A stretch of 64,000 nt of DNA from the NCBI GenBank assembly GCA_024278335.1, contig JAJRTJ010000003.1, forward strand, positions 165,297 to 229,296. Direction: 5' to 3'. The position numbers and the translations under genes are program-made. Source of the stretch: an archaeon. GTDB taxonomy: Archaea > Nanobdellota > Nanobdellia > Pacearchaeales > GW2011-AR1. This document shows positions 16,718 to 62,997 of this stretch, one piece after another (position 1 is the stretch's first letter; the number at the start of each line of letters is the position of its first letter). The notes beneath the pieces were generated by a model. That model did no database searches. It saw only the letters and a list, made by a program, of their open reading frames with translations, and was not told where the DNA came from.

Positions 16718-16746
16718 GGATTTTTGTGATTATCTGTTATCGGAAT

Positions 16747-16985
16747 GCCCCGATAGTTCAGTGGCCAAGAACGCCGCCCTCTCAATGATTAGAATAAGGA
16801 ATTTATCAATTTCTTATACGAAATTTTAAGTTCCAGAGAGAGGTGATCTAGTCTCGATGAGAGAAAAGGTCTTTGCATCTCAATGCAGCCGCTCTCAGGA
16901 AGAAGTTCATAGAACTTCTTACTTGCACAGAAAAATCTGTGCCTGGAGAACGGCGGTAACCCGAGTTCAAATCTCGGTCGGGGCG
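16747..16985 (+). tRNA. tRNA-Glu(CUC) with a 166-nt intron at canonical position 37/38
   Basis: Acceptor GCCCCGA/TCGGGGC, D arm GTTC..GAAC, anticodon stem CCGCC/GGCGG, T arm CCGAG TTCAAAT CTCGG. The spliced loop is CTCTCAC. Exons 16747-16784 and 16951-16985 give 73 nt. No CCA is encoded. The isotype call rests on the inferred splice sites. Confidence 0.75.
16785..16950 (+). other. tRNA intron (166 nt)
   Basis: Relaxed bulge-helix-bulge. The 4-bp helix is CTCT (16779-16782) with GGAG (16945-16948). It is flanked by 3-nt bulges CAA (16783-16785) and AAC (16949-16951). Internal hairpins lie at 16874-16887 and 16900-16920. Confidence 0.65.
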
Positions 16986-35729: not shown

Positions 35730-38700
35730 ATGAGGTGTAAAAATATTTATCTGGTAGCAATTGTTGTATTTGTCCTTGGAGTTATTACTTTTCTTTCTGC
35801 AATTAATTCTCAATCCACAACCTTGCAAGAGTGGAAAATGTTTGGAAGAGATTTAAACAATACTCGTTATTATCCAGATAATCTCACTATTTTAGTTTCT
35901 TCAAGAGAACTTTTGAATTTTAGCACTTATGGGTCAACAATGCAATCTTCTCCAATTATCTCTGGAGACTATGTTTATTTTGGTTCTAATGATTCTCAGA
36001 TCTATCAGCTTAATGCTTCTACATTAAGTTTTATTGCAAATTTTTCAGCAGGGGCTTCAGTTATTGCTTCTGGGGCAGTTGCAGGAGGATTTTTTTATAT
36101 CGCAGCCCAAAACTCAAAGGTTTTTCAATTAAATGCTAGCAATATCTCTCAATTACTGGGGTCTTTTACTTCAGATGATGCTTTTGATTCCCCTCCGATT
36201 GTAGTAAATGATTTCGTTTATATTGCAGATTCTGGACCAGATGTTCTACAATTAAATGCTACAAACATTAGTAAACTTTTTGGGAAATATTCTGCTTTAG
36301 GAATAGCTCCTCCAGACAATTATCATGCAAGTTCTTTAACTTTTTATGACGGAAATATTTTCCTTTCTACGAGTGCTGGAAATATTTATCAACTAAGTGC
36401 TTTGAATGTAAGTAATAAAATAAAAAATATTAGTCTTGAAAATGCTTTTCAATCAACTCCTGTTTTTTACAAAGGAGCACTTTATCTTGGAGATAAGGCT
36501 GGAATTGTCTGGCAATTAAATGCTTCAAATATAGATCAAATGCTTTCTAATTTTTCTACTGGAAAAGTATTTACTGATTCTTTTGCAATTGCAAATGATT
36601 ATGCTTATATTGAAGGAGGGAATACTCTTTTTCAGTTTAATGCTTCAAATTTGAGTTTGCTAGTTGCTAATTTTACTTTGACAAACGGGATTTTTGCTGG
36701 TTCTCCTGCAGTTTCTGAAAATTATGTTTTTATTGGGGCAAATAATTCAATACTTTATCAATTCAATGCTTCAAATGTTAGTCAACTTATTTCTTCAAGA
36801 ACATTAGGGGCTGCAATTCAATCTTCTCCTGCAATCTCCAATAATTCAGTTTACCTTGCTTCAAGTGATATGAACCTTTATCTATTTTCCTCTACCCCTA
36901 TTTCTCCTTACGGATATAAAATTTCTCCTGCAAATGCTTCTTCCCCTTCTAATTCAAGAATTAACTTTGAATTTAATGTTACAGATCTTGGGGGGAATTT
37001 AAAAAATGCTACTCTCTGGGTATGGAATTTGAGCTATGCCGCAGATTTTACAAATGGCTTTAAAACAAATTTTACTCCCATTAGTGGAAGTTTCAATCAT
37101 ACAAATATTACATTGAGTTTTACAGAAAGTGGAAATTATTCTTGGAATGTATTAATTTATGACGCTTTGGATAATAGCAATTGGACAGGGGCAAGTAATA
37201 ATACCTTTGAATTTCTTGTTGATTCGATTATTCCAACATTTGAGGATTTGGCTAATTTTTCGGTGGTTTACCTGGGAGCAGTAAATCTTGATTTAAATGC
37301 AACAGATAATGTTGCTTTGGATTGTTTTTCTGTGAATGATTCTCGTTTTACTATAAATTGTACTGGTTGGCTTTCAAATATCGCTAGTTTACCAATAGGA
37401 TATTATGCTTTGAATATAACAATTAATGATACTTCCAATAACCTAAATTCAGACATTATCTACGTGAATGTAACTGCTCCACCAGACACTCTTGCTCCAT
37501 TTATCGGATTTATTAATCCAACTCCTAGTAATTCGACTTCTAATCCGAATGTTGATAGTTTTGAAATAAATATTTCCATAATTGAAGCTAATCTTAGTTC
37601 CCTTGTTTATAGTTGGAATTATACCAATTATACTATTTATAATGACTCTTTATTATTAATGTATAATTTTAATAATCTTTCTTCTCTTGGAGAAAATTCT
37701 ACACTTGTAAGAGATCTTGCAAATAATAGCGACAATGGAACCGTTTATCTAGCAGAGTGGACTCCTAATGGAAGATATGATGGAGCATATTTGTTTAAGG
37801 AAAATCATAGCTATATTGATGCTGGACCAATTATTGCCAATTCTGGGGCAATAGATCTCTCTTTGGAGGTTTGGATATATCCTCTCAATGTAACTACTTT
37901 TCAAACCATTTTTTTTGATAGTGGAAGTCGATTGGGAAATGATGTTTCACTTCAAATTCTTGGAGATGGTCAGCTAGAGTGTAAATCTGATACAGATTTT
38001 GATACTCAGGGAGACATCTATGGGGGAATCTTAACTTCGCCAGTAGAATCTGTGGTTTTAAATGAATGGCAACATATTGTTTGTGTTATTGATGATACTA
38101 ATGATAAAATTTCTCTTTTTATTAATGGGAAAGAAGTGGCAAGTCAAGTATTTACAACCACACTTCCAACAGATAATTGGCATTCTGTAATAGGATCTCA
38201 ATATGATTTGAACAGCGGAATTTCTTTTCGTACTTTTAATGGAACAATCGATGAATTCCGAATTTGGAATAGGTCTCTTTCTGAGCAAGAAGTTTATCAG
38301 CATTACATTTCTAATTTACAAAAAATTAATCAAACTCAATGGTATTTGTATGTTAATCAAAGTTTAAATGCAACAGATGGTTTGTTTGAGGGTAATTATA
38401 CTTATCAAGCTTTTGCAACAGACAGCGTGGGAAATGAAAACCAGACAGAATTAAGAAGTCTTGAAGTGACCACTACTAGTCCTGATACAACCCTCCCATA
38501 CTTCACATCAACATCATTCAGCGATAGTATAACCTACGGAACAGACTGGTCTGGGGTTAATCTAAATGCAACTGATGATGTCGAATTTGATAGTTTCTCT
38601 ATAAATGATTCAAGATTTACAATCAACTCTACTGGATTCTTAGATGAAATTAATACTCTGGGAGCAGGAATATATAACATTAATATTACAATTAATGACA

Positions 38701-40448
38701 CTTCTAATAATTTGAATTCAAGTATATTTACATTGACTGTTAACCAAGCAACTTCTGACCTATCTTTTTATCTAAATAATTCCGAGATAGACATCTCATT
38801 TATTTATGGAGGTTCTGTCAATGCTTCAGCAAATACAACTCTTGGAGAAGTGGATATTTTTAGAAATGGTGTGAACGTAAGTTCAGAAGAAAATACTTTT
38901 GTAACACTTGGAGTTGGAATATATAATTATACTGCTGTAAATTATGGAAATGAGAATTATAGTGAAGTAAGCAGGCAGATTAATTTAACAATTAATAAAG
39001 CAACAGGGGTTTTAACTCCTTATTTAAATAACACGAACGCTAATTACACTGCAAATAATGACAGCAAGGAAATTTGGATAAATGCTACATTAGAAACGGG
39101 TCTTGGAAATATTGAAGTTTATTTAAACGGAAGTTTGATTGCTAATAATACTGCTCCAAATAATCTTACTAATTTATCTCTTGGGTATTACAATATTACT
39201 TATATTTATAGAGGTAATGAGAATTATACTTCAGACGAGGAAGTCCTTTGGGTTAATTTAAGTGCAACTGCAGATACTATCCCTCCAACGCTCTCTTCAA
39301 TAACAGCAACTTCTATAACTTCTTCAGGAGCGACTATTACCTGGACAACAGATGAGCTTGCAAATTCAACTGTTTATTATGGTTCAACAACTTCAACAAC
39401 TTCCAGTTCTTTTTCAACAAGTTCTGTAACTTCTCATTCAATTTCTTTATCTGGGTTAGCCTCTTCTACACTTTATTATTATAATGTTTCAAGCTGTGAT
39501 AGTTCAGGTAATTGCAATACTTCAATTCAATATAATTTTACAACTTCTGCTGCTTCAACTGGCGGAGGCGGGGGAGGCGGAGGGGGTGGCGGAGGAGGAA
39601 CTGTCCTTTGTGAAGATGAGTGTGACTTAGGCGAAACACAAGCGGTTTGTATGGGAAACTTTAGTGTTGAAAAGAAAATTTGTGGAGAAGCAAATGACGG
39701 GGATACTTGCAGAGAGTGGGTTGTGCAAACTACAGGGGATTGTGGGGAGAAAGAAGTATGTGAAGAGGGAGTGTGCGTTAGAGCAAGGAATTGCACTCCT
39801 AATTTTCTTTGTGGAAGTTGGTCAAAATGTGTTAGTGAGGAGAGAATTCGTCCTTGTATTGATTTAAATGGATGCACTTCTGCATATCAAGATGAAAAAG
39901 AATGTAAGCTTGTTTTGTCGGGTTGTTCTATTGAACTTTCTCCGGGATGGAACCATAAATCTTTATGTAATAAATTTGAAGGGAAATCTATTAAAGAGAT
40001 CTTTGGAAAAGCATATGATGCTTTGGAATATGCACTTGCATGGAATAGCTCAAAACAAGAGTTTGATGTTTATTCAAAATACTCTGCTGAATTCCCTTTA
40101 GATTCACTTTCGCATAATATAAACAAGTATCATAGTTATTTCTTTTATATAAGGAAAGGAAATTACTTTCTTGATTATGGGAATGAGTCTTATAATTCTT
40201 TAGAGATTCCGGTTGATTCAAATAAATGGGAAAGTCCTTCTTTTATGTCTTTGAATTCTTCTTCTGTCAGGAAGGGTCAGGGAAATTTTAAGGGGTTGGA
40301 TATAAATTATTTATTAAAATGGGATAATTTGAATCAGGAATATGAAGTTTATAGTCCTCTTTCAAAAGAAACTGGTTTAACAATTTATCCTTCTGACGGG
40401 ATTTTTACATATAGCTCAAGCGGAGGTGGGTTGGTATATGATAATTAG
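35730..40448 (+). CDS. Giant secreted surface/adhesin-like protein
   Basis: 1572 aa with a signal anchor. About 8 PQQ-like blades carry a recurring YQLNASN(I/V/L)S motif. LamG motif FNGTIDEFRIWNRSLSEQEV. FN3-like PPTLSSITATSITSSGATITWTT. A run of 13 Gly. C-terminal module CGSWSKC...RPCIDLNGC. Very many N-x-S/T sequons. Confidence 0.8.
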   Translation: MRCKNIYLVAIVVFVLGVITFLSAINSQSTTLQEWKMFGRDLNNTRYYPDNLTILVSSRELLNFSTYGSTMQSSPIISGDYVYFGSNDSQIYQLNASTLSFIANFSAGASVIASGAVAGGFFYIAAQNSKVFQLNASNISQLLGSFTSDDAFDSPPIVVNDFVYIADSGPDVLQLNATNISKLFGKYSALGIAPPDNYHASSLTFYDGNIFLSTSAGNIYQLSALNVSNKIKNISLENAFQSTPVFYKGALYLGDKAGIVWQLNASNIDQMLSNFSTGKVFTDSFAIANDYAYIEGGNTLFQFNASNLSLLVANFTLTNGIFAGSPAVSENYVFIGANNSILYQFNASNVSQLISSRTLGAAIQSSPAISNNSVYLASSDMNLYLFSSTPISPYGYKISPANASSPSNSRINFEFNVTDLGGNLKNATLWVWNLSYAADFTNGFKTNFTPISGSFNHTNITLSFTESGNYSWNVLIYDALDNSNWTGASNNTFEFLVDSIIPTFEDLANFSVVYLGAVNLDLNATDNVALDCFSVNDSRFTINCTGWLSNIASLPIGYYALNITINDTSNNLNSDIIYVNVTAPPDTLAPFIGFINPTPSNSTSNPNVDSFEINISIIEANLSSLVYSWNYTNYTIYNDSLLLMYNFNNLSSLGENSTLVRDLANNSDNGTVYLAEWTPNGRYDGAYLFKENHSYIDAGPIIANSGAIDLSLEVWIYPLNVTTFQTIFFDSGSRLGNDVSLQILGDGQLECKSDTDFDTQGDIYGGILTSPVESVVLNEWQHIVCVIDDTNDKISLFINGKEVASQVFTTTLPTDNWHSVIGSQYDLNSGISFRTFNGTIDEFRIWNRSLSEQEVYQHYISNLQKINQTQWYLYVNQSLNATDGLFEGNYTYQAFATDSVGNENQTELRSLEVTTTSPDTTLPYFTSTSFSDSITYGTDWSGVNLNATDDVEFDSFSINDSRFTINSTGFLDEINTLGAGIYNINITINDTSNNLNSSIFTLTVNQATSDLSFYLNNSEIDISFIYGGSVNASANTTLGEVDIFRNGVNVSSEENTFVTLGVGIYNYTAVNYGNENYSEVSRQINLTINKATGVLTPYLNNTNANYTANNDSKEIWINATLETGLGNIEVYLNGSLIANNTAPNNLTNLSLGYYNITYIYRGNENYTSDEEVLWVNLSATADTIPPTLSSITATSITSSGATITWTTDELANSTVYYGSTTSTTSSSFSTSSVTSHSISLSGLASSTLYYYNVSSCDSSGNCNTSIQYNFTTSAASTGGGGGGGGGGGGGTVLCEDECDLGETQAVCMGNFSVEKKICGEANDGDTCREWVVQTTGDCGEKEVCEEGVCVRARNCTPNFLCGSWSKCVSEERIRPCIDLNGCTSAYQDEKECKLVLSGCSIELSPGWNHKSLCNKFEGKSIKEIFGKAYDALEYALAWNSSKQEFDVYSKYSAEFPLDSLSHNINKYHSYFFYIRKGNYFLDYGNESYNSLEIPVDSNKWESPSFMSLNSSSVRKGQGNFKGLDINYLLKWDNLNQEYEVYSPLSKETGLTIYPSDGIFTYSSSGGGLVYDN

Positions 40449-50911: not shown

Positions 50912-51799
50912 ATGAAAAAGAAAGCTTTGGTTTTATATTCTGGAGGATTGGATTCGCGCTTAGCTGTGAAACTCTTGATGGAGAAAGGGTTTGAAGTTGA
51001 GGCTTTACATTTTAATTTGCCGTTTGGATGCGGGTGCTGTAATTTTCTTTGTAATTTTGGATTTACTCAGAGAAATGAAGTTAAAATGACTTTATTTGAT
51101 TGTTGTAAAGGGAAATTGTTGAAAGAATATCTGGAAGTTTTAAAACAAGCAAAACATGGGACTGGGGCAGGAGTTAATCCTTGCATTGACTGCAAAATTT
51201 TTATGTTTAAGAAAGCAAAGGAGTATGCAGATACCCTCAAGAGCACAAGTAAAGAAGGAATTAATATTATTGCTACAGGAGAGGTTTTGGGGCAGAGGCC
51301 AATGAGCCAGACTTCTAAAGCAATGAAAATTATTGATAAAGAAATTGGTTTTAAACTGGCTCGGCCGTTAATGGATCTGGGAATTAAAGGAAGAACTCGG
51401 AAAAAGCAAATGGAGCTTGCAGAAAAGTTTGGGATTAGGTATCCAACTCCTGCCGGCGGGTGTTTGCTTTGCGAAAAGCAATTAGTAAAGAGATTTAAGG
51501 TTTTGTTTGAAAATGATTTGATTGATGAAAAGAGCTTGCCTCTGACAATGATTGGAAGGCATTTTTTTATTGAAGATTGCTGGTTTGTTGTTGCTCGTGA
51601 TGAAAAAGAGTGCAAAATTATTGAAAAATCTGAGAGTTTTATTGAAGGGAGAAAAGGAAAGCCCGCTGTTTATTGGAAATTTGTGAAAAGTAAGAAAAAG
51701 GAGAAATGGGCAAAAGAAAAAGCACTTGAATTACAAAAAGCTTATTCTACTAGGAAGGATAAGAAAAAAAGAGTTGAGTTTGAAAAGTGGAAGATATAA
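50912..51799 (+). CDS. ThiI-like PP-loop ATP pyrophosphatase (tRNA thiolation family) without a THUMP domain
   Basis: PP-loop LVLYSGGLDSRLA, CIDCK, TGEVLGQRPMSQT (compare ThiI TGESLGQVASQT), GGCLLCEK. Confidence 0.55.
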   Translation: MKKKALVLYSGGLDSRLAVKLLMEKGFEVEALHFNLPFGCGCCNFLCNFGFTQRNEVKMTLFDCCKGKLLKEYLEVLKQAKHGTGAGVNPCIDCKIFMFKKAKEYADTLKSTSKEGINIIATGEVLGQRPMSQTSKAMKIIDKEIGFKLARPLMDLGIKGRTRKKQMELAEKFGIRYPTPAGGCLLCEKQLVKRFKVLFENDLIDEKSLPLTMIGRHFFIEDCWFVVARDEKECKIIEKSESFIEGRKGKPAVYWKFVKSKKKEKWAKEKALELQKAYSTRKDKKKRVEFEKWKI

Positions 51800-52178: not shown

Positions 52179-52757
52179 ATGTGCAATCTATGTAATATAA
52201 AACCTGTTTATGAATTTACAAATAAAAGAAAGCTTTGCTCTGCTTGTTTTATTAGGTGGTTTAGAAAAAAAGTGTTTTATACAATGAGGAAATTTGGAAT
52301 GGCTAAGAGGGGAGATTGTATTTATTATCCAGAAAGAAGGGATTTTAGAAATGTTGTTTTAGAGGAAGTTTTAAAGATATGGTCAGAAAAGGCAGGAGTT
52401 GAATTAGTCAGTAGAAAGAAGAAAGGGAGCCGCTCGGCATACCCCAAAATGCGGAATTCTGGGGCATGTTTAATTGCTGTTGCTGATACTTTGGATATTA
52501 CTTGTTTGAATTTTATTGAGGAAGTGTTTGGGAGAAAAAAAGAGAATTTACTTCCAGTTGTTGGGGGGGCCATCAAACCTTTGTATTTATTTTTAGATGA
52601 GGAAGTTGAATTATATGCTAAATTATTGAAGTTGAAATTTAATAAAAATAAAGAGAGGAAAAACAAGCTTGCAGATTTTATTAATTCTTTAGAAAAAAAT
52701 CATCCTGAAGTCAAAAGAGCTGTGGTTAATAGTTATTTGGAATTGTTTTATAATTGA
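52179..52757 (+). CDS. Zinc-finger protein resembling the N-terminus of TtuA/Ncs6/TilS-type PP-loop enzymes, with a degenerate PP-loop
   Basis: CNLC...CSACF N-terminal finger followed by a PP-loop-like but non-canonical region. It contains the 39-nt element in frame. Confidence 0.3.
   Translation: MCNLCNIKPVYEFTNKRKLCSACFIRWFRKKVFYTMRKFGMAKRGDCIYYPERRDFRNVVLEEVLKIWSEKAGVELVSRKKKGSRSAYPKMRNSGACLIAVADTLDITCLNFIEEVFGRKKENLLPVVGGAIKPLYLFLDEEVELYAKLLKLKFNKNKERKNKLADFINSLEKNHPEVKRAVVNSYLELFYN
52428..52466. repeat. 39-nt GC-rich palindromic element, copy 1 (in frame, encodes SRSAYPKMRNSGA)
   Basis: agccgctcggcataccccaaaatgcggaattctggggca is 34/39 identical to 62788-62826. Confidence 0.85.
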
Positions 52758-61593: not shown

Positions 61594-62997
61594 ATGAAAA
61601 AACCAGAAAAAGGAGAAATAAGAAAGCCGACAAGGACAATTTCCGGGATTACTCCTGTTGCAGTAATGCTGCCTCCTCGGGCATGTGAGCATGGAGAGTG
61701 TGTTTATTGTCCGAATTTGAATGTTCCTCAAAGCTATACTCCTCGGAGTCCGGTTGTTATGAGAGCAAGTGCAGTAAATTATGATTCTTATAAACAGACT
61801 CAGGCAAGATTAGAGGCATTTAAGGCAATGAATCATCCAACAGACAAGATTGAAATTATTGTTATGGGAGGGACTTTTCTTCAATATTCAAAGAAATTTC
61901 AATATGAGTTTATTAAGGGAATTTATGATGCTTTGAATAATTCTAAATCAAAGAGTTTGGGAGAAGCAAAAAAGAAAAATGAAAGAGCAAAACATCGGTG
62001 TGTTGCTTTGTGCTTGGAAACTAGACCAGATGCTTGTGTTGAGTTTATTGATAGAATGAGAGAATTTGGGTGCACGCGGGTTGAATTAGGAGTTCAGATT
62101 ATTGATGATAGGATTTACAAGTTAGTTAAAAGAGGGCATACAGTTGAGGATGTTGTTAAGGCGACTAAAGCATTGAAAGACGCGGGATTTAAAGTTGGTT
62201 ATCATCTTATACCAGGCCTTCCTGGAAGTAATTTAAAAAAGGATTTAAGATTGTTTAAAAAGATTTTTTCTGACGAAAAGTTTAAGCCAGACCAAATTAA
62301 ATTATATCCTTGTCAGGTTATGCCTGGCTCAGAACTTGAGAATTTATATTGGAATAAAAAGTATAAACCTTACACTAAAAAAGAAATTGAGAAGATTTTG
62401 ATTCAGATGTTAAAAATTGTTCCGAGATATTGTCGTGTTATGAGAGTAATGAGGGAGATTCCTCCAGAGTATATTGTTGCTGGAACAATTCATATTGATT
62501 TAAGAAAAGATATTGAAGCAGAGTTGAGAAAGAAAGATTCAAAACTTAAAGAGATTCGGTATAGGGAAATTGGTTTTGCTTTAAGGGAAGGTAAGGAGAT
62601 TGATTGTAATTTAAGATTAAAGATTACGAGGTATATGGCATCTGGGGGGGAAGAATATTTTTTAGAAATTGTGAATAAGCAGGATATTTTGTTTGGACTT
62701 TGTAGGTTGAGGGTTGTTAGGGGGAAGGCGGTTGTTAGAGAGCTCCATGTTTATGGGCCTGCTTTAAAATTAGGAGAAAAGGGATGGTGCCGATCGGCAT
62801 GCCCCCAATTGCGGAATTCTGGGGCACAACATACTGGTTTGGGGAAATGGCTGATAAGTGAAGCTGAAAAAATTGCTAAAGAAAAATGCATTAAAAAATT
62901 AAAAGTTATTAGTGGGGTTGGCGTAAGAGAGTATTATAAAAAGTTAGGATATAAATTAGATAAGGGAAAAGGGGGGTATATGGTTAAAGGTTTATAA
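61594..62997 (+). CDS. elp3: Elp3-type radical SAM / GNAT tRNA uridine(34) acetyltransferase
   Basis: Radical SAM CEHGECVYCP. GNAT region VRELHVYGPA...QHTGLGKWLISEAEKIA. It contains the 39-nt element in frame. Confidence 0.85.
   Translation: MKKPEKGEIRKPTRTISGITPVAVMLPPRACEHGECVYCPNLNVPQSYTPRSPVVMRASAVNYDSYKQTQARLEAFKAMNHPTDKIEIIVMGGTFLQYSKKFQYEFIKGIYDALNNSKSKSLGEAKKKNERAKHRCVALCLETRPDACVEFIDRMREFGCTRVELGVQIIDDRIYKLVKRGHTVEDVVKATKALKDAGFKVGYHLIPGLPGSNLKKDLRLFKKIFSDEKFKPDQIKLYPCQVMPGSELENLYWNKKYKPYTKKEIEKILIQMLKIVPRYCRVMRVMREIPPEYIVAGTIHIDLRKDIEAELRKKDSKLKEIRYREIGFALREGKEIDCNLRLKITRYMASGGEEYFLEIVNKQDILFGLCRLRVVRGKAVVRELHVYGPALKLGEKGWCRSACPQLRNSGAQHTGLGKWLISEAEKIAKEKCIKKLKVISGVGVREYYKKLGYKLDKGKGGYMVKGL
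62788..62826. repeat. 39-nt GC-rich palindromic element, copy 2 (in frame, encodes CRSACPQLRNSGA)
   Basis: tgccgatcggcatgcccccaattgcggaattctggggca contains the palindromes tgccgatcggca and tgcccc...ggggca. Confidence 0.85.

What the first reader, a model, noticed from the sequence alone, without database searches (positions are those of the whole stretch)
52428..52466. Second in-frame copy of the same 39-nt element in an unrelated zinc-finger / PP-loop-like ORF
Seen in sequence: agccgctcggcataccccaaaatgcggaattctggggca encodes SRSAYPKMRNSGA between ...VSRKKKG and CLIAVADTLD. It differs from the Elp3 copy at 5 of 39 positions. Four of the five substitutions change an amino acid (S/C, Y/C, K/Q, M/L) and one is synonymous (both Arg). 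The 3' 17 nt (tgcggaattctggggca) and the central tcggcat are invariant. Nucleotide-level conservation inside two non-homologous proteins points to selection or recent spread at the DNA or RNA level, not protein homology. The first hairpin is less perfect here (gccgctcggc versus gccgatcggc).
Basis: seen in the sequence. Interest (0 to 1): 0.65.

Follow-up and report, generated by a model that had tools for sequence, protein, structure and literature searches.

The report
In-frame hairpin mini-element in DPANN genes
The 39-base sequence is one copy of a previously undescribed family of tiny, G+C-rich, two-hairpin repeats that have inserted again and again into unrelated genes of small DPANN archaea, always in lengths divisible by three, so the host proteins just gain a short extra loop.

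Summary
Window 52428-52466 and 62788-62826 are 34/39 identical. They lie in frame in two non-homologous genes: a TtuA-fold zinc-finger protein and Elp3.

Pattern scans found about 140 further copies in Pace-, Woese- and Nanoarchaeota MAGs and metagenomes. None were found in viral contigs.

The unit is (G) hairpin 1, TA, hairpin 2 (CCCC...GGGG), CA(AA). Both stems show compensatory changes. Loop positions vary freely except AAA and GAAT.

Lengths are 33, 39, 45, 57, 69 or 99 nt: 101 of 103 measured copies are multiples of three.

Copies occur in all three sense frames, rarely antisense, and also between genes. Hosts include DNA polymerase B, GyrA, CysRS, GatD and IscS. Most orthologues of both window genes have an empty site. 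Others carry independent insertions in the same loop.

AlphaFold puts the inserted 13 residues in a low-confidence loop.

Best explanation: a selfish, non-autonomous mini-element that is translated through and survives only where a hydrophilic loop is tolerated. What mobilises it is unknown. A BHB intron, translational bypass, a CRISPR repeat and a classical MITE were each tested and do not fit. I found no published description.

The parts
52428..52466 (+). Element copy 1 (39 nt). Hairpin 1 is 52428-52439 (aGCC-gctc-GGCa), linker TA 52440-52441, hairpin 2 52442-52464 (CCCC...GGGG), CA 52465-52466. It encodes SRSAYPKMRNSGA, residues 84-96 of the host protein.
   Evidence: (59.2 bits, E 3.6e-15)
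62788..62826 (+). Element copy 2 (39 nt). Hairpin 1 is 62788-62799 (TGCC-gatc-GGCA), linker TG 62800-62801, hairpin 2 62802-62824, CA 62825-62826. It encodes CRSACPQLRNSGA in the Elp3 loop just before the QHxGxG motif.
   Evidence: (58.3 bits)
52179..52757 (+). Host gene 1: a 192-aa protein with an N-terminal CxxC...CxxC zinc finger. It has a TtuA/NcsA-like fold but no SGGxDS PP-loop motif. The family is conserved in DPANN, and most members are about 180 aa without the insert.
   Evidence: pLDDT 88; the insert lies in a coil that is mostly low-confidence: block 81-90 mean pLDDT 51, block 91-100 mean 77, residues 84-87 below 50; Foldseek TtuA, E 8e-10, TM 0.74
61594..62997 (+). Host gene 2: Elp3, the radical SAM/GNAT tRNA U34 modification enzyme, 467 aa. 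Typical relatives are 453-454 aa.
   Evidence: (TIGR01211, 515 bits)

Best explanation
The sequence is a copy of a small, non-autonomous, selfish DNA repeat family specific to Nanoarchaeota-type DPANN archaea (Pace- and Woesearchaeota).

The unit is 33-99 nt, mostly 39 nt plus a conserved G before and AA after. It consists of two short G+C-rich hairpins joined by TA and closed by CA(AA).

Copies land throughout the genome. Within genes, only insertions that keep the reading frame and give a tolerable, hydrophilic, Pro/Gly/Arg-rich surface loop survive. This explains several features: all size variants are multiples of three; most copies are stop-free in the frame used; intragenic copies are almost all in the sense orientation; and the same permissive loops (the Elp3 loop before QHxGxG, the TtuA-like beta-beta loop) are hit repeatedly.

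The element is transcribed and translated as part of the host protein. Its conserved stems and a few fixed loop bases are what an unidentified trans-acting enzyme recognises to copy or move it.

Shown here: family membership, empty sites, stem covariation, the 3n lengths, the frame and orientation distribution, and the loop location.

Inferred: translation of the insert, selection as the cause of the sense bias, and the existence of a mobilising enzyme.
For: Two copies in the window, against 0 expected by chance.

28 DPANN loci from a hairpin 2-anchored genome scan and 105 non-redundant copies from a hairpin 1-anchored metagenome scan.

Stem covariation in hairpin 1 and hairpin 2.

Lengths are 39 (89 copies), 33 (6), 45, 57, 69, plus a 99-nt form. 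Only 2 of 103 are off-frame.

Copies sit inside verified housekeeping genes: PolB, TctA, CysRS, GatD, IscS and radical SAM by Pfam, and GyrA and PpsA by eye.

Frame use is 26:33:6, with 5 antisense. A gene-context census gives 110 sense and 2 antisense. Intergenic copies show no clear bias: 4 to 3 between co-directional genes.

Sense-frame peptides are hydrophilic (GRAVY -0.4 to -1.0). Antisense frames are richer in C/W/F/I.

Empty sites exist in most orthologues. There are independent insertions at different codons of the same TtuA-like loop and at another site in that family. Different subfamily members occupy the same Elp3 junction in proteins 88% identical, and an empty site occurs at 86% identity.

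AlphaFold places the insert in a coil between two strands that is mostly low-confidence. The solved Elp3 structure 5L7J has a gap there.
Against: No transposase or other candidate mobilising gene was found. No recurrent family lies near the copies, and no hairpin 1 and hairpin 2 were seen flanking a cargo.

There are no terminal inverted repeats and no clear target duplication.

Within-genome copies are not significantly more alike than between-genome copies (p = 0.16), so recent intragenomic bursts are not demonstrated.

Translation of the insert is inferred, not observed. No transcript or peptide data were available.

All four element-bearing Elp3 genes share exactly the same right junction. 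This could mean old vertical inheritance with conservation rather than repeated insertion.

Both scans required exact matches to conserved cores, so decayed copies are under-sampled.
Confidence: 0.7

Rival explanations
1. The element acts at the RNA level in the sense strand of mRNAs. It could be an excised mini-intron, a site of ribosomal bypass, or a binding or processing site for an RNA-binding protein. On this view the 3n length is only a fail-safe.
For: There is a strong sense bias inside genes. Loop bases A19-21, G27, A28, T30 and A40 are invariant while neighbouring positions are free. CCCC/GGGG is a 4-bp helix, and each strand is followed by three conserved bases (AAA, CAA), which superficially resembles the core of a bulge-helix-bulge motif. 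The same window carries a tRNA with a long intron, so the splicing machinery is present.
Against: The helices that should flank a BHB are not supported. There is no covariation between positions 22-26 and 31-33, and no pairing with the variable flanks.

Cleavage in the two 'bulges' would remove 19 nt (13 nt in the 33-nt form) and shift the reading frame, yet host frames run straight through the whole element.

An intron model does not predict 3n lengths or uneven frame use (26:33:6).

Real antisense copies exist in PolB and TctA.

Stem mismatches are C.A as often as G.U, so there is no RNA-specific wobble signal.

There are no matched take-off and landing codons and no stop after the 5' junction, as bypass would need.

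No Rfam family matches.
Confidence: 0.1
2. The element is not transposed. Copies spread and are kept uniform by recombination, either gene conversion between copies or templated repair at breaks in purine-rich tracts. A few old insertions were inherited vertically and occasionally lost.
For: All Elp3 copies share an identical right junction, and two of them share the unusual GATC loop (window and L158). Two close Elp3 relatives carry different family members at the same junction, as if one replaced the other. No transposase, TIR or TSD was found.
Against: Conversion cannot create copies at new sites. Copies are found in more than 100 different genes and in intergenic regions. They sit at several different codons within one loop of the TtuA-like family. 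Empty sites dominate among orthologues.
Confidence: 0.12
3. The 13 residues are a conserved functional peptide motif shared by the two proteins, and the nucleotide similarity follows from that.
For: The same reading frame (xRSxYPKLRNxGA) is used in both window copies and in many other hosts.
Against: Four of the five differences between the window copies change the amino acid. The same DNA is read as (A)PLGVPQIAE... and TARCTPNCG... in other genes, and antisense in PolB and TctA. Copies also lie between genes. Most orthologues lack the insert. The model gives it very low confidence over residues 84-87 and no regular structure.
Confidence: 0.02
4. The match is a chance similarity or an assembly artefact.
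For: None beyond the short length of the sequence.
Against: Shuffles give 0 matches. The covariance model gives E about 1e-15 for both copies. The same element appears in independent assemblies from many studies.
Confidence: 0.01

Closest known systems
Rickettsia palindromic elements (RPE), 'selfish DNA in protein-coding genes' (reviewed in PMC10969869)
   Same: A repeated, hairpin-forming element is inserted in frame into many unrelated housekeeping genes of a reduced genome. It is translated as an extra surface segment compatible with the fold. Orthologues lack it. The mobilising enzyme is unknown.
   Different: RPEs are about 100-150 bp, bacterial, and unrelated in sequence. This element is 33-42 nt (up to 99), archaeal, built of two G+C-rich mini-hairpins in an A+T-rich genome, used in all three sense frames, and modular.
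Mobile G+C clusters of yeast mitochondrial DNA and their derivatives, the 'byp' elements of Magnusiomyces (own knowledge; byps are mentioned in PMC8211752)
   Same: Very short (about 30-60 nt), G+C-rich, hairpin-forming, modular repeats scattered through an A+T-rich genome, including inside coding regions. The transposition mechanism is unknown.
   Different: Those elements are in eukaryotic organelles. Byps break the reading frame and are skipped by the ribosome. Here the frame is preserved and no bypass signals are present.
REP/BIME elements with RAYT transposases, and IS200/IS605-derived palindrome-associated elements
   Same: Comparable size (about 35-40 nt). Structure-defined hairpins with compensatory changes and a few fixed unpaired bases. 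No TIR or TSD. This makes single-strand hairpin recognition by an HUH-type enzyme a plausible way for the element to move.
   Different: REPs are extragenic, carry a 5' GTAG, and co-occur with a RAYT gene. Here most copies are intragenic, there is no GTAG, and no Y1/HUH gene was seen near any copy.
Classical prokaryotic MITEs (census in PMC11602168)
   Same: Non-autonomous, multicopy and lineage-specific.
   Different: There are no terminal inverted repeats and no evident target duplication. The element is below the 50-bp lower limit used by MITE finders. About 89-90% of catalogued MITEs are intergenic, whereas these are mostly intragenic.
Archaeal bulge-helix-bulge introns in mRNAs (e.g. cbf5 of Crenarchaeota; own knowledge)
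   Same: An archaeal, short, structured insert within a protein-coding gene.
   Different: The BHB geometry is incomplete. The predicted cut would shift the frame. The element is a dispersed repeat constrained to 3n length and is found in both orientations.

Membership tests
RPE-type in-frame intragenic selfish repeats (functional class) | The same repeat lies inside unrelated protein-coding genes without breaking the reading frame | tested here: met
   Found in Elp3, the TtuA-like protein, PolB, GyrA, PpsA, CysRS, GatD, IscS, TctA and a radical SAM protein. 101 of 103 lengths are multiples of 3.
RPE-type in-frame intragenic selfish repeats (functional class) | Orthologues without the insert exist (empty sites) | tested here: met
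   L160 is empty while L158 is filled, at 86% aa identity.
RPE-type in-frame intragenic selfish repeats (functional class) | The insert falls in a surface loop compatible with the fold | tested here: met
   In the AF2 model, residues 84-96 lie in the coil between strands 75-79 and 97-100; pLDDT falls below 50 only at 84-87, with block means of 51 (81-90) and 77 (91-100). The Elp3 insert aligns to a gap in 5L7J.
Rickettsia RPE families proper | About 100-150 bp, with sequence related to RPE-1 to RPE-10, in Rickettsiales | tested here: not met
   The unit is 33-99 nt and the hosts are DPANN archaea. Sequence relatedness to RPEs was not aligned directly.
MITE | Terminal inverted repeats | tested here: not met
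   The ends are (G)CACC... and ...GGGGCA(AA), which are not complementary.
MITE | Target-site duplication | tested here: inconclusive
   The flanks show G at -1 (65%) and AA at +1/+2 (96% and 75%), but no matching repeat from copy to copy. No near-identical filled/empty pair was available to fix the exact ends.
MITE | A related autonomous IS with the same ends | tested here: not met
   No hairpin 1...cargo...hairpin 2 arrangement was found among 116 metagenome hits, and no recurrent transposase lies near copies. Whole genomes were not searched.
REP/RAYT or IS200/IS605-derived hairpin elements | Hairpin with compensatory changes plus fixed unpaired bases | tested here: met
REP/RAYT or IS200/IS605-derived hairpin elements | Extragenic location, a 5' GTAG, and co-occurrence with a Y1 transposase gene | tested here: not met
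   Most copies are intragenic. There is no GTAG. No Y1/HUH gene was seen in about 0.9 Mb of flanking DNA. Genome-wide co-occurrence cannot be tested here.
Archaeal BHB intron | A 4-bp helix flanked by two 3-nt bulges on opposite strands, plus outer and inner helices | tested here: not met
   The core CCCC-AAA / GGGG-CAA is present, but the flanking helices are neither supported nor covarying.
Archaeal BHB intron | Excision restores the reading frame | tested here: not met
   The predicted excision is 19 nt or 13 nt, whereas the frames are continuous through the whole element. No RNA data were available.
Programmed translational bypass (T4 gene 60 / byp) | Matched take-off and landing codons, a stop or frame break inside the gap | tested here: not met
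   There is no conserved codon match at the two junctions, and the used frame is open.
CRISPR repeat | Regularly spaced arrays | tested here: not met
   Copies are single or irregularly spaced in all loci.
Any Rfam RNA family | A score at or above the gathering threshold | tested here: not met
   Only two tRNAs reach threshold in the window. Near the element the best hit is ROSE_3 at 11.5 bits, against a threshold of 43.

The most novel reading that the evidence does not exclude
The element may not be passive junk. It could be the substrate of an undescribed, structure-guided copying system of DPANN archaea: an enzyme that recognises two mini-hairpins and the fixed UA / AAA / GAAU / CAA bases, possibly on single-stranded DNA or on RNA. 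Its sense-strand copies in mRNAs of housekeeping genes could also have a function, such as a protein binding site, local control of translation, or removal by an unknown route. Either would be a new kind of mobile or regulatory element in archaea.
Probability: 0.15. Interest if true: 0.85.

Novelty: new variant of a known kind. Interest (0 to 1): 0.62.

Why it matters
It would be the first archaeal counterpart of the Rickettsia in-frame palindromic elements, and much smaller than any catalogued MITE.

It shows that even highly reduced DPANN genomes tolerate and propagate selfish DNA inside essential genes such as DNA polymerase, gyrase, tRNA synthetases and Elp3.

There are practical consequences. 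These inserts lengthen proteins in MAG annotations. They create spurious shared 'motifs' between unrelated proteins. They mark permissive loops in enzymes, and they can serve as lineage markers.

The strictly structure-defined architecture, with no transposase in sight, points to a mobilising activity that is not yet known.

Tried and rejected
- **BHB intron:** the 4-bp helix with two conserved triplets looked promising, but the flanking helices are absent and the predicted cut shifts the frame.
- **K-turn, T-loop or anticodon-loop mimicry of hairpin 2:** considered by inspection. The positions of the G-A bases do not fit.
- **Guide-target pairing between variable loop bases and flanks:** mutual information with permutations gave nothing beyond what multiple testing would produce.
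- **Pseudoknot between CCGC of hairpin 1 and GCGG of the hairpin 2 loop:** not conserved in the Elp3 copy or in other subfamilies.
- **Viral vector:** viral contigs gave no true copy; two chance hits only.
- **More copies in the window:** a covariance-model search with filters off and a structural regex found none.
- **Nearby transposase:** clustering of ORFs from all loci found only housekeeping families.
- **Purine-rich target as the cause of the sense bias:** only 2.6-fold, so too weak on its own.
- **Within-genome homogeneity as a sign of recent bursts:** not significant.
- **Exact look-up of the host protein in the contig index:** not on record.
- **Literature:** six full-text searches found no description of such an element in DPANN.

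Full report
**1. The observation**

Window 52428-52466 reads agccgctcggcataccccaaaatgcggaattctggggca. It lies in frame in ORF 52179-52757 and encodes SRSAYPKMRNSGA. A second copy at 62788-62826 lies in frame in ORF 61594-62997.

The shared 17-mer has 0 matches in 100 dinucleotide shuffles. A covariance model built later scores the two copies at 59 and 58 bits. With filters off, nothing else in the 64 kb exceeds 11 bits. The window is about 32% G+C, whereas the element is 60%.

**2. The host genes**

- ORF 61594-62997 is Elp3 (TIGR01211, 515 bits).
- ORF 52179-52757 has no Pfam hit and only weak TtuA/TIGR00269 matches.
- Its AlphaFold model (pLDDT 88) matches TtuA and NcsA structures (E about 1e-9, TM 0.65-0.75).

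The two hosts are unrelated. Homologues of both carry Pacearchaeota, Nanoarchaeota or 'archaeon' labels, so the window comes from a DPANN archaeon.

**3. Empty sites**

Most homologues of the TtuA-like protein are about 180 aa and lack the 13 residues. In Elp3, 97 of 120 close homologues have the short loop KG-x-x-x-QH. The solved Elp3 structure 5L7J aligns with a 10-residue gap at the insert. In the AlphaFold model, the inserted residues form a coil between strands 75-79 and 97-100, with pLDDT below 50 at 84-87.

**4. A large family**

Some homologues carry a related peptide. In the TtuA-like family:

- P0002 and P0006 have it in the same loop.
- P0016 has it at a different place in the protein.
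- Two of these elements are 39/39 identical in DNA, although they sit at different sites in different samples.

A genome-collection scan with a hairpin 2 pattern returned 33 loci. Of these, 28 are low-G+C DPANN contigs carrying an intact element. One MAG has at least 9 copies. The other five are high-G+C bacterial chance hits without hairpin 1.

A metagenome scan anchored on hairpin 1 returned 116 stretches, giving 105 non-redundant low-G+C copies. The covariance model found further diverged copies within the fetched loci. Viral contigs hold none.

**5. Anatomy**

The consensus is (G) CACC-GCTC-GGTG TA CCCC AAA N5 GAAT N3 GGGG CA (AA).

In 81 hairpin 1-anchored copies:

| Position | Composition |
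|---|---|
| 22-26 and 31-33 | free to vary |
| G27 | 81/81 |
| A28 | 80/81 |
| T30 | 71/81 |
| A40 | 78/81 |
| A41 | 61/81 |
| base before the element | G in 65% |

The unit is therefore probably 42 nt. The window copies have the G but not the AA.

Evidence that the stems are maintained as structures:

- Hairpin 1 covaries. Pair 5-14 is A-U in 13 copies and G-C in 11, with none unpaired. Pair 7-12 is C-G in 19, A-U in 3 and U-A in 2. No shuffle or slid control approaches this.
- The hairpin 2 stem occurs as CCCC/GGGG, CACC/GGTG and TCCC/GGGA.
- Relatives with entirely different stems keep the plan G-hairpin-TA-hairpin-CAAAG.
- Longer forms of 57, 69 and 99 nt add extra G+C mini-hairpins between the two.

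No Rfam family matches.

**6. Coding context**

Measured from the start of hairpin 1 to GGGGCA, lengths are 39 (89 copies), 33 (6), 45 (1), 57 (2) and 69 (3). One copy each is 34 and 40 nt. A 99-nt form was seen.

Copies lie inside long ORFs in all three sense frames: HRSVYPKLRNxGA, (A)PLGVPQIAExxGK and TARCTPNCGxxGQ. The counts are 26, 33 and 6, with 5 antisense.

Hosts confirmed by Pfam are family B DNA polymerase and TctA (both antisense copies), CysRS, GatD, a class V aminotransferase (IscS/NifS) and a radical SAM protein. GyrA and PpsA are evident from the translations.

A gene-context census gives 110 intragenic sense copies against 2 antisense. The 30 intergenic copies show no clear orientation preference; between co-directional genes the split is 4 to 3. 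Three copies in L013 sit in one intergenic spacer.

Antisense frames rarely contain stops, so stops do not explain the bias. However, the antisense frames encode more hydrophobic, Cys/Trp/Phe/Ile-rich peptides than the sense frames (GRAVY -0.1 to +0.5 against -0.4 to -1.0). A purine-rich target would favour the sense strand only 2.6-fold.

Taken together, the 3n lengths, the uneven frame use and the contrast between intragenic and intergenic orientation point to selection on a translated product.

**7. Recurrent insertion**

In the TtuA-like family the element sits at three or more different codons of one loop, in different frames and size classes, and at one distant site.

In Elp3, 12 of 120 homologues have an enlarged loop, in at least six separate clades whose nearest relatives mostly have the short loop. 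At the DNA level:

- The four element-bearing Elp3 genes examined all end ...GGGG(C/T)(A/T) directly before CA(A/G)CAT.
- One of them has the compensated CACC/GGTG stem.
- Two proteins 88% identical carry a 39-nt and a 54-nt family member at the same junction.
- A filled gene and an empty gene are 86% identical.

This fits a permissive hot spot with repeated gain, loss or copy-to-copy replacement. It also leaves room for older, vertically inherited copies.

**8. Mechanism**

What moves the element is not known. Specifically:

- There are no terminal inverted repeats and no consistent target duplication.
- The variable loop bases do not covary with the flanks.
- No transposase recurs near copies.
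- Hairpin 1 and hairpin 2 were never seen around a cargo.
- Within-MAG copies are only slightly and not significantly more alike than between-MAG copies.

The structure-defined conservation, with a few fixed unpaired bases, resembles substrates of hairpin-recognising single-strand enzymes such as those acting on REP or IS200/IS605 ends. That is a resemblance only.

A BHB intron was considered, because CCCC/GGGG is a 4-bp helix whose strands are each followed by three conserved bases. The flanking helices are missing, however, and the implied 19-nt excision would destroy the reading frame. Bypass signals and CRISPR-like arrays are absent.

**9. Comparison and novelty**

The element behaves like Rickettsia palindromic elements (in-frame selfish DNA in housekeeping genes; PMC10969869) and like the mobile G+C clusters of yeast mitochondria. 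It is not a member of either family. It fails the defining tests for MITEs, which require TIRs and TSDs, and it is shorter than the 50 bp that the large census PMC11602168 gives as the lower end of the prokaryotic MITE size range.

Six full-text searches found no description of such an element in DPANN archaea. The library does not cover all journals, so prior description cannot be excluded.

I rate it a new variant of a known kind.

**10. Verdict**

The two window copies are moderately diverged members of a widespread DPANN mini-element family. They lack the terminal AA and carry 2-3 private changes each relative to their likely common source. They are most likely translated as tolerated loops.

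Noticed in passing
window 16746-16985 (+): A tRNA gene interrupted by an intron of about 150 nt in the anticodon loop. The acceptor, D and T arms are readable by eye. ARAGORN and the Rfam gathering search both missed it.
   Followed up: partly
window 50912-51799 (+) and 52179-52757 (+); L005 729-2125: A ThiI-like PP-loop ATPase gene lies directly upstream of the TtuA-fold zinc-finger gene, which lacks the PP-loop motif. The same gene order occurs in L005. This may be a two-protein tRNA thiolation pair.
   Followed up: no
Elp3 homologues P0134, P0239, P0148, P0190, P0227 (loop aligned to window 62779-62826): The same Elp3 loop holds other inserts of 17-20 extra residues with unrelated-looking sequences, e.g. 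ISQHSGLLEGAISLRENAEQV. These may be other element families or decayed long forms.
   Followed up: no
L023 597-701; L028 1454-1528; L030 526-600; L161 (Elp3 loop): Modular long forms of 54-99 nt, with extra G+C mini-hairpins or an A+T-rich inner hairpin between the two standard hairpins. All are multiples of three.
   Followed up: partly
L076 and L096 (metagenome loci): Two different family members lie in tandem within about 30 nt of each other, with different stems but the same G-hairpin-TA-hairpin-CAAAG plan.
   Followed up: no
L121, L053, L084, L113, L148, L152 and others: Many copies end a few bases before a start codon or form the last codons of the upstream gene, and several lie in ribosomal-protein gene clusters. 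In L121 a copy sits immediately before an Elp3 start.
   Followed up: no
L142 94-147 (-): An element copy abuts the 3' end of a tRNA gene encoded on the other strand.
   Followed up: no
L021 (contig labelled Candidatus Omnitrophota bacterium): An intact element lies on a 39% G+C contig binned as a bacterium. The contig is probably a mis-binned DPANN contig.
   Followed up: no
window 39541-39613 (+): The most G+C-rich stretch of the window (up to 87% in 30 nt) is a GGN run coding poly-Gly inside the 1572-aa ORF 35730-40448. It is unrelated to the element.
   Followed up: no
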